Shown one piece after another: positions 11,747 to 12,019 of a stretch of DNA of 40,000 nucleotides. The position numbers and the translations under genes are program-made. The DNA is taken from assembly GCF_030689305.1 (NCBI RefSeq), contig NZ_JAUYVM010000022.1, positions 14,433 to 54,432 of the forward strand, read 5' to 3'. The notes under the pieces were generated by a model. That model was given only the letters and a program-made list of their open reading frames with translations. It did no database searches and was not told the DNA's origin. Source of the stretch: Vibrio penaeicida. GTDB taxonomy: Bacteria > Pseudomonadota > Gammaproteobacteria > Enterobacterales > Vibrionaceae. Within the stretch, counting starts at the first letter, position 1. The number at the start of each line of letters is the position of its first letter.

Positions 11747-12019
11747 CACATATGAGCCTTCCGCCTGTAAATAGGCAATAGCATTCTCTTGGCTGCGATA
11801 GCAGCCAATAGATCTCACACAACATAGCTATCCACTTCGTTTTGTCATTTCGTTCATGAATGTGCGCCTCCACCTTCGCGCCAGATAGTCAACGTCATAA
11901 AGTGCTTAAGTCTAGTATGAGCAATTAATTGCATGGTATTCTAATGGAGTGGTCAGAATGTTATTGGGCACCCTGAAGATAAATTATTCAGACATTTTGT
12001 CCCATAGTAATTGTTATGT
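11741..12019 (+). repeat. Composite cassette boundary: R''-like ACATAAC + conserved 125-nt module + R0 copy b ending GTTATGT
   Basis: ACATAAC overlaps the stop of cassette A. 11747-11873 aligns with 15117-15243 and 16820-16946. 11881-12019 aligns with 10715-10853. Confidence 0.6.

What the first reader, a model, noticed from the sequence alone, without database searches (positions are those of the whole stretch)
11747..11873. Conserved ~125-nt non-coding module in three cassette boundaries: candidate IS-end guide (bridge/seek) RNA or a novel attC-associated structured element
Seen in sequence:
- 11747-11873, 15117-15243 and 16820-16946 align over their whole length (roughly 85 percent by eye), although the neighbouring cassettes are unrelated.
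- Each copy starts right after the TAAC/TTAC of the R''-like core (ACACwTATGAGCCTTyCGCC...) and ends ...GAATGTGCGCCTCCA.
- Each contains a hairpin: TTGGCTGC-GATA-GCAGCCAA at 11789-11808, and ATTGGCTGC-GATA-GCAGCCAAT at 15158-15179. The hairpin is partly disrupted in the third copy.
- In two copies the module is contiguous with the truncated transposase. Relative to that gene it is the 3' non-coding end.
- In the 11747 copy it is instead fused to repeat R0.

Established knowledge: IS110-family recombinases use an element-encoded structured guide RNA. In IS1111-type members this RNA is reported at the end downstream of the transposase.

Inference: the retained module could be that RNA gene. Its preservation after loss of the transposase would suggest selection or trans-mobilisation.
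Basis: partly seen in the sequence, partly recalled or inferred. Interest (0 to 1): 0.65.

Follow-up and report, generated by a model that had tools for sequence, protein, structure and literature searches.

The report
Broken insertion-sequence ends replacing attC sites
The repeated 125-nt module is the leftover right end of an RNA-guided insertion sequence that homes into integron attC sites, fused to a stump of a second such element; it keeps only the tail of the element's guide-RNA region, so it is a footprint and not a working guide-RNA gene.

Summary
In detail: three copies, 83-86% identical, sit directly against the R'' core of three unrelated cassettes. The functional strand is the window minus strand.

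The last ~105 nt of each copy are the 3' terminus of an IS110-family element that I call type B (transposase 69% identical to ISMahy12). Full-length relatives in Vibrio, Enterovibrio, Alteromonas, Pseudoalteromonas and Catenovulum insert at the R''/L'' end of VCR-like attC sites. The other ~22 nt are codons 58-69 of a second attC-targeting element, type A (ISMahy7-like). Its left end and transposase stump complete copies 2 and 3.

Full-length type B carries a ~460-nt 3' non-coding region that folds into 13 covariation-supported helices. This is a large bridge/seekRNA-type RNA. The window module keeps only:
- one strand of its long closing helix
- the terminal hairpin
- a -35-like TTGAC
- the subterminal inverted repeat

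The candidate guide segments lie upstream and are deleted, and the window has no transposase. The "retained guide RNA gene" idea is not supported.

The A/B hybrids replace whole attC interiors. They recur with identical deletion junctions at unrelated cassette boundaries, which suggests copying by an unresolved mechanism. This is a new member of a known kind, of moderate interest.

The parts
11749..11851 (-). Copy 1: type-B IS right-end fragment (last ~105 nt of the 3' non-coding region plus the subterminal inverted repeat). It abuts core CA and the R'' TAA at 11743-11748.
   Evidence: blastn to full-length type B (L021), ref 1763-1871, 84%; sequence
11852..11873 (-). Copy 1: 22-nt remnant of type-A transposase codons ~58-69. 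Everything upstream of it in the element has been lost and replaced by repeat R0.
   Evidence: Alignment with copies 2 and 3 and with the V. halioticoli tnpA
15119..15220 (-). Copy 2: type-B right-end fragment
   Evidence: blastn ref 1764-1872, 83%
15221..15475 (-). Copy 2: type-A left end (GAATGAC ATCAATTCTCCC...) plus 5' UTR plus the N-terminal ~60-69 codons of the type-A transposase. It ends against the R' core GTTAGCT at 15476.
   Evidence: blastn ref A 32-286, 74%; tblastn aa 7-55 at 65% and aa 58-69 at 83%; ORF 15248-15433
16823..16925 (-). Copy 3: type-B right-end fragment, with the hairpin carrying two mismatches
   Evidence: blastn ref 1763-1871, 82%
16926..17131 (-). Copy 3: type-A left end plus transposase stump, short subclass lacking 49 nt around the start codon. 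It ends against the R' core GTTATAT at 17132.
   Evidence: blastn ref A 33-85 and 145-286; alignment
11789..11808 (-). Hairpin = helix 13 of the type-B RNA, copy 1. Equivalent hairpins lie at 15158-15179 and ~16863-16884.
   Evidence: Helix 13: 5 of 8 pairs show compensatory change among 8 full-length relatives
12529..12656 (+). Context: an intact VCR-like attC site of the same array. Others are at 14194-14321, 18780-18907 and 19318-19445. This is the normal target of these IS elements.
   Evidence: Repeat family D1 and its alignment

Best explanation
**What it is.** The module is a dead footprint of two RNA-guided (IS110-family, DEDD) insertion sequences that home into integron attC sites.

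**Origin.** On the attC bottom strand (window minus strand), a type-A element (ISMahy7-like, IS1111-type) inserts directly at the R' core (..TAAC|). A type-B element (ISMahy12/ISGsu4-like) inserts at the R''/L'' end, with the empty site reading YTAA-CA-ANNNNNTCAAG on the top strand. An internal deletion running from inside the type-A transposase gene to near the end of type B then removed most of tnpA, the whole attC interior, tnpB and about three quarters of type B's 3' non-coding region.

**What is left.** Left end A, a tnpA stump and the last ~105 nt of B sit between the bare R'' and R' cores.

**What the module does in an intact type-B element.** The module region supplies four things:
1. 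The 3' strand of the 19-bp helix that closes the multi-loop domain of a ~440-nt bridge/seekRNA-like RNA.
2. A terminal hairpin.
3. A TTGAC box, placed to act as the -35 of a circle-junction promoter.
4. The right subterminal inverted repeat, where recombination occurs.

**Status in the window.** The helix partner, both candidate guide domains and the transposase are missing, so the module cannot guide anything. The attC sites it replaced are most likely inactivated.

**Shown versus inferred.** Shown: the homology, the architecture, the RNA covariation and the absence of the other parts. Inferred: the double-insertion-plus-deletion history, the promoter role, the assignment of guide segments and the loss of attC function.
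For: - **Copies elsewhere.** About 45 module copies occur in Vibrionaceae genomes.
- **Full-length elements.** In L021, L032, L034 and L046, with more distant relatives L047 and L049-L051, a 347-350-aa IS110-family RNA-guided transposase (NF033542) is followed by a 460-550-nt non-coding region. That region ends in the module and then ..CATATGT|GTTA.
- **Inverted repeat.** The left end TGAGCCTTCTCC is the inverted repeat of the module's GGAGAAGGGCTCA.
- **attC target.** The flanks of the full-length copies are VCR-like attC sequence in bottom-strand orientation, for example L046 ..AACGCGTGGCATTTT, matching the window's own attC repeats.
- **RNA structure.** On 8 diverse non-coding regions, 13 helices and 94 pairs are 93.6% paired, against 82.4% in shuffles and 31-42% with slid partners. 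Forty-four pairs show compensatory change, with 0 of 500 shuffles as good. G-U pairs occur on the transposase-sense strand.
- **What the module keeps.** It maps to alignment columns ~484-590 only. The helix-5 partner (columns 200-219), the GCCUAAC loop (39-45), UGAGCC (228-233) and UAUAUGUGUUUG (443-454) are all upstream.
- **What the window lacks.** blastn and tblastn find no other type-A or type-B sequence in the window.
- **Type-A stump.** It is 65% identical to a full-length 350-aa V. halioticoli transposase whose left end abuts ..CTAAC|.
- **Two IS in one attC.** Co-occupation of one attC by two IS110-family elements in the same orientation is seen intact in pVIBHAR (type C + attC interior + type B) and in L005 (type A + type C).
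- **Literature.** IS1111-type elements carry the guide RNA in the 3' non-coding region, and some target attC ends (PMC11187229). ISGsu4 is predicted to carry its bridge RNA in the right end (PMC11208160 supplement).
Against: - No intact A-attC-B tandem of exactly these two types was found. The history rests on analogous tandems (C+B and A+C).
- The same deletion junction (A286/B1763), and even the same secondary 49-nt deletion, recur at six or more unrelated cassette boundaries in two prophages and one chromosome. Independent decay cannot produce that, so some copying process acts on the composites.
- The B-derived part is better conserved (88%) than the tnpA stump (79%) and a 33-nt stretch (57-65%). 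That hints at constraint or gene conversion rather than pure neutral decay.
- The guide-segment assignment rests on short matches (7-10 nt) and is not tested.
Confidence: 0.8

Rival explanations
1. The hybrid (left end A ... right end B) is a live non-autonomous element, MITE-like or a hitcher. Full-length type-A and/or type-B elements elsewhere in the host copy it between attC sites in trans. The module is then its functional right end, which is why it is conserved.
For: - Junction classes are species-specific and multi-copy, for example more than 10 Salinivibrio copies of A33-203/B1666-1870.
- The window class, and its 49-nt-deleted subclass, each occur at several unrelated cassette boundaries in the window, in related prophage L052 and in V. 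penaeicida L027.
- Both ends and the B part are the best-conserved segments.
- Precedents exist: the ssr9 module rides on the ISPpu9 transposase (PMC12288879), and half-match recognition and partial excision products are reported for IS110 elements (bioRxiv 10.64898/2026.08.14.744561).
Against: - The two ends come from elements whose transposases are ~24% identical.
- Their subterminal repeats match poorly, and the flanks differ from either element's native junction.
- The composite lacks any guide region.
- Insertion by transposition should leave attC interior on one side, but none is present.
- Homologous recombination or gene conversion could spread the deletion allele without transposition, and the prophage encodes RecT and a YqaJ exonuclease.
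Confidence: 0.25
2. One reading: the module is itself the retained seekRNA/bridge RNA gene, kept under selection after the transposase was lost.
For: - It derives from the RNA-encoding non-coding region and contains a covarying hairpin.
- It is the most conserved part of the composites.
- Short seekRNAs of 70-100 nt are sufficient in IS1111 elements (PMC11187229).
Against: - It holds 1.5 of 13 helices, and its 5' half is the orphaned strand of helix 5.
- The hairpin loop is 3-6 nt and varies in sequence.
- Within the module the only recurrent matches to the attC target or IS ends are the short UUUGUUG run in the helix-5 strand, which is not conserved in the more distant relatives, and the right end matching itself. 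The conserved GCCUAAC and the other candidates are upstream.
- There is no cognate transposase in the window, no promoter or terminator signal and no Rfam match.
Confidence: 0.05
3. The composite is a novel, very long attC-type recombination site, with IS ends standing in for the L boxes, and the integron integrase still uses it.
For: It lies exactly between an R''-like (YTAAC) and an R'-like (GTTRRRY) core at cassette boundaries, and it accompanies unrelated cassettes much as species-specific attC families do.
Against: - Single-stranded DNA folds of two composites are no more stable than shuffles (z = -0.66 and +0.27), and the minimum-energy structures are not the long imperfect hairpin that defines a folded attC.
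- The L'' and L' boxes are deleted.
- Retention of the cores is an automatic result of where the two IS insert.
Confidence: 0.03
4. The module is the decayed C-terminal coding end of the truncated transposase. The palindrome encodes AAIAA, which resembles the ...VALA.K.ARI.W... tails of IS110 transposases.
For: One minus-strand frame reads GLAAIAANRMLLPIDRRKAHKC* in copy 2.
Against: - The stop codon is not conserved among the copies.
- The hairpin loop varies by 3, 4 or 6 nt, giving frameshifts, while the stem co-varies.
- In full-length elements the transposase stop lies ~350 nt upstream of the module.
- tblastn finds no match to a transposase C-terminus.
Confidence: 0.01

Closest known systems
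IS1111-attC group (ISPst6, ISKpn4, ISPa21, ISPa25) and their degenerate footprints in Pseudomonas cassette arrays (Tetu & Holmes 2008; Post & Hall 2009; seekRNA shown in PMC11187229)
   Same: - DEDD/IS110-family elements that insert in one orientation at one end of attC sites.
- Subterminal inverted repeats and a long 3' non-coding region that encodes the guide RNA.
- Decayed copies are left behind in arrays (this last point is recalled from the 2008 abstract and was not re-read here).
   Different: - The transposases are distant: type A is 33% and type B ~24% identical to ISKpn4.
- The hosts are Vibrionales and Alteromonadales.
- Three lineages hit three different positions of VCR-like attC sites: A at R', C at TTAAG in L', and B at R''/L''.
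- The footprints here are A/B hybrids that replace the whole attC interior.
ISMahy12 / ISGsu4 clade (ISfinder IS110 group, with the bridge RNA predicted in the right end by Durrant et al. 2024)
   Same: The type-B transposase is 69% identical to ISMahy12 and 53% to ISGsu4. The RNA lies in the right end, as predicted for ISGsu4.
   Different: The attC targeting, the 13-helix ~440-nt RNA and the Vibrionaceae copies are described here from sequence only. The ISfinder DNA entries were not available, so I could not check whether ISMahy12 has the same ends.
IS621 / ISEc11 bridge RNA and seekRNA
   Same: An element-encoded structured RNA with internal or multi-loop guide regions. A promoter is formed at the circle junction. 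Domain I of type B (long stem, internal loop, stem) resembles a target-binding loop. Domain II is a multi-loop, as reported for many IS1111 donor-binding regions (PMC11208160).
   Different: The type-B RNA region is about 2-5 times longer. The window module is only its 3' tail and the DNA end, with no guide loops.
ISPpu9 / ssr9 modular element (PMC12288879)
   Same: A small RNA-type module lies downstream of an IS110-family transposase gene and also occurs alone in many copies.
   Different: ssr9 is bounded by the element's own repeated boxes and forms circles using the cognate transposase. Here the short elements have heterologous ends taken from two different IS.

Membership tests
IS110/IS1111-family element end (right end with non-coding region) | Contiguous with a DEDD (IS110-family) transposase gene in full-length copies | tested here: met
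   L021, L032, L034, L046 and others: a 347-350-aa NF033542 transposase, then a 460-550-nt non-coding region ending in the module
IS110/IS1111-family element end (right end with non-coding region) | Subterminal inverted repeat shared with the other end; specific target and orientation | tested here: met
   Left end TGAGCCTTCTCC versus GGAGAAGGGCTCA in the module. All copies end ..CATATGT|GTTA(K)G next to attC sequence.
Functional bridge/seekRNA gene | Conserved secondary structure supported by covariation | tested here: met
   Met for the full ~460-nt region: 13 helices, 44 compensatory pairs, 0 of 500 shuffles as good. The window module contains only helix 13 and one strand of helix 5.
Functional bridge/seekRNA gene | [quoted passage not shown] | tested here: not met
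   Not met for the module. Candidate segments (GCCUAAC, UGAGCC, UAUAUGUGUUUG) lie at alignment columns 39-454, upstream of the module. Within it, the recurrent matches are the right end itself and a short UUUGUUG run in the helix-5 strand that is not conserved in distant relatives.
Functional bridge/seekRNA gene | Cognate transposase available; RNA expressed and bound by it | not testable with these tools
   There is no type-B transposase in the window. Expression and binding need RNA-seq or RIP.
IS1111-attC group (ISPst6/ISKpn4 lineage) | Transposase closely related to ISPst6/ISKpn4 (the group shares >70% identity) | tested here: not met
   Type A is 33% and type B ~24% identical to ISKpn4. 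They work like the group but are not members.
attC recombination site | Bottom strand folds into an imperfect hairpin pairing R''/R' and L''/L' | tested here: not met
   Cores are present but the L boxes are absent. ssDNA folds give z = -0.66 and +0.27 against shuffles.
MITE / non-autonomous IS derivative | Multi-copy, lacks a transposase, and has both ends of one autonomous element | tested here: inconclusive
   The copies are multi-copy with identical internal junctions, but the ends come from two different elements. True same-element deletion derivatives also exist (L045 for B, L041 for A).

The most novel reading that the evidence does not exclude
The A/B hybrids are active hitch-hiking elements. 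Short chimeric units carrying the left end of one bridge-recombinase IS and the right end of another would be copied between attC sites, including arrays carried by temperate phages. Relaxed (half-match) recognition by one or both RNA-guided recombinases would drive this, converting attC sites into IS-derived boundaries and freezing or reshuffling cassettes. The conserved module would be the cis-acting right end needed for that.
Probability: 0.2. Interest if true: 0.7.

Novelty: new member of a known kind. Interest (0 to 1): 0.38.

Why it matters
**Annotation.** These ~105-400-nt repeats in Vibrionaceae cassette arrays are IS110-family footprints. They are not attC variants or small-RNA genes, and each one marks a cassette boundary whose attC has been destroyed.

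**Biology.**
- VCR-type attC sites are hit at three distinct positions by three lineages of RNA-guided recombinases.
- One lineage (ISMahy12-like) carries an unusually large, well-supported structured RNA. That RNA could be mined as a natural attC-targeting bridge system.

**Open question.** Identical hybrid deletion derivatives recur at unrelated sites, including in phage-borne arrays. How such chimeras spread is a concrete and testable question.

Tried and rejected
- **Coding remnant of a transposase C-terminus (AAIAA).** Rejected. The stop codon is not conserved, the hairpin loop varies in length, and the transposase stop lies ~350 nt upstream in full-length copies.
- **Right end of the adjacent (type-A) element.** Rejected. 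The full-length type-A right end in V. halioticoli and Vibrio sp. THAF190c is unrelated (GGGGGAATCCATGTA), and blastn maps the module to type B only.
- **attC-like fold of the composite.** Rejected.
- **Rfam.** No family matches the window or a full-length element.
- **First motif scan of viral contigs.** It returned only an unrelated conserved phage gene. Two genome hits (Empedobacter L017 and Shewanella L035) were also chance matches.
- **Metagenome scan for the window-class junction.** Nothing found.
- **Exhaustive k-mer complementarity scan allowing G-U.** Too noisy to assign guides. Only matches that recur across elements were kept.
- **pVIBHAR as an intact A-attC-B tandem.** On inspection the upstream IS is a third type, C, 43% identical to A. 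It supports co-occupation of an attC, not the exact A+B pair.
- **Tetu & Holmes 2008 (PMC2447020).** Could not be opened.

Full report
**1. Observation**

The three copies (11747-11873, 15117-15243, 16820-16946) are real. They are 83-86% identical over the conserved part. A motif built from them hits the window three times, against 0.00 expected by chance. Each begins next to the TAAC/TTAC that follows a plus-strand cassette ORF, and the cassettes on either side are unrelated. The hairpin TTGGCTGC-N4-GCAGCCAA is present in copies 1 and 2 and carries two mismatches in copy 3.

**2. Orientation and neighbours**

- On the minus strand, copies 2 and 3 are preceded by a 5' end ..TAAC|GAATGACAT.. 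and by the first ~60-69 codons of an IS110-family transposase (ORF 15248-15433; tblastn).
- The ~22 nt at the ...GAATGTGCGCCTCCA end of the module are codons 58-69 of that gene (IGVEAC..AHYW) with a small deletion.
- One frame through the palindrome reads like a transposase tail (AAIAA), but it is not coding. The stop codon is not conserved, and in relatives the loop is 3, 4 or 6 nt long while the stem is kept.

**3. Relatives**

- Plasmid and chromid searches gave hits in Vibrio and Salinivibrio.
- One scan of 185,579 species genomes with a motif that leaves the hairpin unconstrained returned 34 loci with ~45 true copies. All are in Vibrionaceae (Vibrio, Salinivibrio, Enterovibrio, Veronia) plus one unclassified 'Bacterium sp. 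HQB-39'. Two further hits were chance matches.
- Every true copy ends ...GGCTCATATGT|GTTA(K)G.
- Most copies are preceded by fragments of the same type-A transposase.
- In L021 (Enterovibrio calviensis), L032 (V. nigripulchritudo), L034 (Vibrio sp. WXL210), L012 and pVIBHAR L046, the module is instead the last part of a ~460-nt non-coding region. That region lies downstream of a complete 347-350-aa transposase (MRFYNQQH..), here called type B, which is only ~24% identical to type A.
- Both proteins match NCBIfam NF033542, 'IS110 family RNA-guided transposase'.
- Type B is 68.7% identical to ISMahy12 and 53% to ISGsu4. Type A (full length in V. halioticoli pIAM14596 and Vibrio sp. THAF190c) is 57.7% identical to ISMahy7 and 33% to the attC-targeting ISKpn4.
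- More distant type-B elements (64-70% protein identity) occur in Catenovulum, Pseudoalteromonas and Alteromonas, with the same ends.

**4. Ends and targets**

*Type B*
- The left end is TGA TACTCAT TGAGCCTTCTCC. The right end is GGAGAAGGGCTCA TATG.
- The module therefore carries the right subterminal inverted repeat, which is the hallmark of IS1111-type architecture (PMC11187229).
- The flanks of full-length copies are VCR-like attC sequence read on the bottom strand. An example is L046 ..GCCACGCGTTGAGAATCCCTCTTGAACAGAT|, to be compared with the window's own attC repeats ...CTCAAGCCGACCGCTAACGCGTGGCA....
- With a TG core dinucleotide, the reconstructed empty site is YTAA-CA-A-N5-TCAAG on the top strand. 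That is the canonical R''-L'' end (the core assignment is an inference).

*Type A*
- It abuts ..CTAAC| on its left and GCCGCGTTAAG.. on its right. This is the R'-L' end of an attC on the same strand.

*Type C*
- A third lineage, 43% identical to A, inserts after ..TTAAG| inside L'.

*Several IS in one attC*
- pVIBHAR carries type C + ~100 nt of attC interior + type B in one attC. L005 carries A + C in one attC.
- So two such IS do co-occupy one attC in the same orientation.

**5. The window copies are hybrids**

- Mapping every copy onto the type-A and type-B references shows a recurrent structure: left end A, a tnpA 5' part, then a B 3' part.
- The junction classes are species-specific:
  - Salinivibrio: A33-203/B1666-1870, more than 10 copies.
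  - V. nigripulchritudo: A33-298/B1640.
  - V. fluminensis: A33-300/B~1700.
  - The window and V. penaeicida: A33-286/B1763-1870.
- Pure-B and pure-A internal deletion derivatives also occur.
- In the window, composites 15119-15475 and 16823-17131 fill the whole space between an R'' core and an R' core. No L boxes or attC interior remain.
- Copy 1 has in addition lost everything upstream of the tnpA remnant and is joined to a ~170-nt repeat whose other copy directly follows phage gene P.
- The window holds no other type-A or type-B sequence and no transposase.

**6. The RNA**

- Eight diverse full-length type-B non-coding regions give a consensus of 13 helices and 94 pairs.
- Cells are 93.6% paired, against 82.4% in column shuffles and 31-42% with slid partners. 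Forty-four pairs show changes on both sides, with 0 of 500 shuffles as good on every measure. G-U pairs lie on the transposase-sense strand.
- Domain I (helix 1 of 19 bp, a large internal loop, then helices 3 and 4) carries an invariant G(Y)CUAAC in its 5' loop strand. This is complementary to the attC core GTTAG(R)C.
- Domain II is a multi-loop closed by helix 5 (19 bp, 10 compensatory pairs). It contains UGAGCC, identical to the left inverted repeat, and an invariant CUAUAUGUGUUUG, identical to the right junction CATATG-TG-TT.
- This layout matches published descriptions. [quoted passage not shown]
- Assigning these segments as guides is an inference. No Rfam family matches.

**7. What the module contains**

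The window's B-derived ~105 nt correspond to alignment columns ~484-590. In order, they hold:
1. A conserved AAUGACA..GAAGUAGA stretch.
2. The 3' strand of helix 5, whose partner at columns 200-219 is deleted.
3. Five of its 8 pairs are compensatory, for example TTAGCTGCC/GGCAGCTAA in Pseudoalteromonas and TCGACAAC/GTTGCCGA in Catenovulum.
4. CTATTGCCTATTGAC.
5. The inverted repeat.

In a circle junction, TTGACC would lie 18 nt from GATACT of the left end, preceded by TG. That fits the junction promoter known for this family (PMC11187229; this is an inference).

The module is therefore the tail of the RNA region plus the cis-acting DNA end. It is not a guide RNA. Promoter-like and terminator-like sites are not enriched around the copies.

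**8. Open point: spread and conservation**

- A related prophage (L052, IMG/VR UViG_2630968716; 89.5% identical in the O/P genes) has a different cassette set. It nevertheless carries three more composites of exactly the window's junction class at consecutive boundaries.
- A secondary 49-nt deletion with identical end-points is shared by w3, two L052 copies and V. penaeicida L027. The undeleted form is shared by w2 and one L052 copy. Independent decay cannot explain this, so the composites are copied.
- Across six composites, mean pairwise identity is 84% for the left end, 79% for the tnpA stump, 57-65% for a 33-nt stretch and 88% for the B part.
- Possible explanations:
  - Trans-mobilisation with relaxed or half-match recognition. 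Precedents are PMC12288879 and bioRxiv 10.64898/2026.08.14.744561.
  - Homologous recombination or gene conversion that spreads the deletion allele among doubly occupied attC sites. The prophage encodes RecT and YqaJ.
- An attC-surrogate role is not supported. ssDNA folds give z = -0.66 and +0.27.

**9. Verdict**

- The finding is a genuine repeat with a genuine structured hairpin, but it is explained as an IS110-family footprint.
- The 'retained guide RNA gene' and 'novel attC-associated element' parts do not.
- It is a new member of a known kind: attC-targeting RNA-guided IS and their relics.
- Two side observations may be worth following. One is the three IS lineages that hit three positions of VCR-type attC sites, one of them with a ~440-nt structured RNA. 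The other is the multi-copy A/B chimeras.

Noticed in passing
window 3273-10655 and 26162-39562; array 10700-20500: The window is a lambdoid prophage. It has an integrase, RecT, a YqaJ exonuclease, an S24/CI-like repressor, Rep O with iterons at 9404-9544, Rep P and an SU10-type portal. A ~10-kb array of attC-bounded cassettes with no intI in view sits between gene P and the late genes. attC arrays in phages have been reported before (PMC9892861).
   Followed up: partly
L052 (IMGVR_UViG_2630968716_000001) 1388-3785, 5908-8692: A related prophage (89.5% identical in the O/P region) carries a different cassette set but the same class of IS-hybrid boundary elements at three consecutive cassette junctions.
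   Followed up: partly
window 10707-10878 and 11880-12045: A ~170-nt direct repeat ('R0'). The first copy directly follows phage gene P. The second follows truncated module copy 1. Together they bracket ORF 10844-11746. Function unknown; it may be a promoter or leader region duplicated when the first cassette was acquired.
   Followed up: no
L046/L053 (pVIBHAR NC_009777.1 ~20.9-24.0 kb); L005 3512-4900: A third IS110-family lineage, 'type C' (43% identical to type A; subterminal repeat GATGGTCTCCCCC), inserts after TTAAG inside the L' region of VCR-like attC sites. It is found in tandem with type B (pVIBHAR) or type A (L005) in a single attC.
   Followed up: partly
L021 427-900 (-), L046 2236-2715, L047, L049-L051: The type-B (ISMahy12-like) 3' non-coding region is a ~440-nt RNA with 13 covariation-supported helices and no Rfam family. 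It is much larger than characterised bridge or seek RNAs.
   Followed up: yes
window 15227-15259 and 16943-16975 (minus strand; the 33-nt stretch between the tnpA stump and the module): This 33-nt segment is far more diverged (57-65% identity) than its neighbours, with no length change. Some copies form a small local hairpin (TGCAT..ATGCA in w3; CTCAC..GTGAG in L052). Unexplained.
   Followed up: no
window 1797-1869 and 3028-3100: A 73-nt direct repeat (95% identical) made of a terminator-like hairpin followed by TGGTCGGACTGA..GGATTTGAACC. The latter looks like the reverse complement of a tRNA 3' end, although ARAGORN finds no tRNA. It lies just upstream of the prophage integrase and may be an attachment-site remnant.
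   Followed up: no
L047 (Catenovulum pCadTS8_2) ~2790-2815: The terminal 22 nt of the type-B right end (GACCTCGGGGAGGCTCATATGT) are tandemly duplicated.
   Followed up: no
window 22565-23341 (-): An ORF with an AHH (HNH/Endo VII superfamily) nuclease toxin domain lies just downstream of the cassette array.
   Followed up: no
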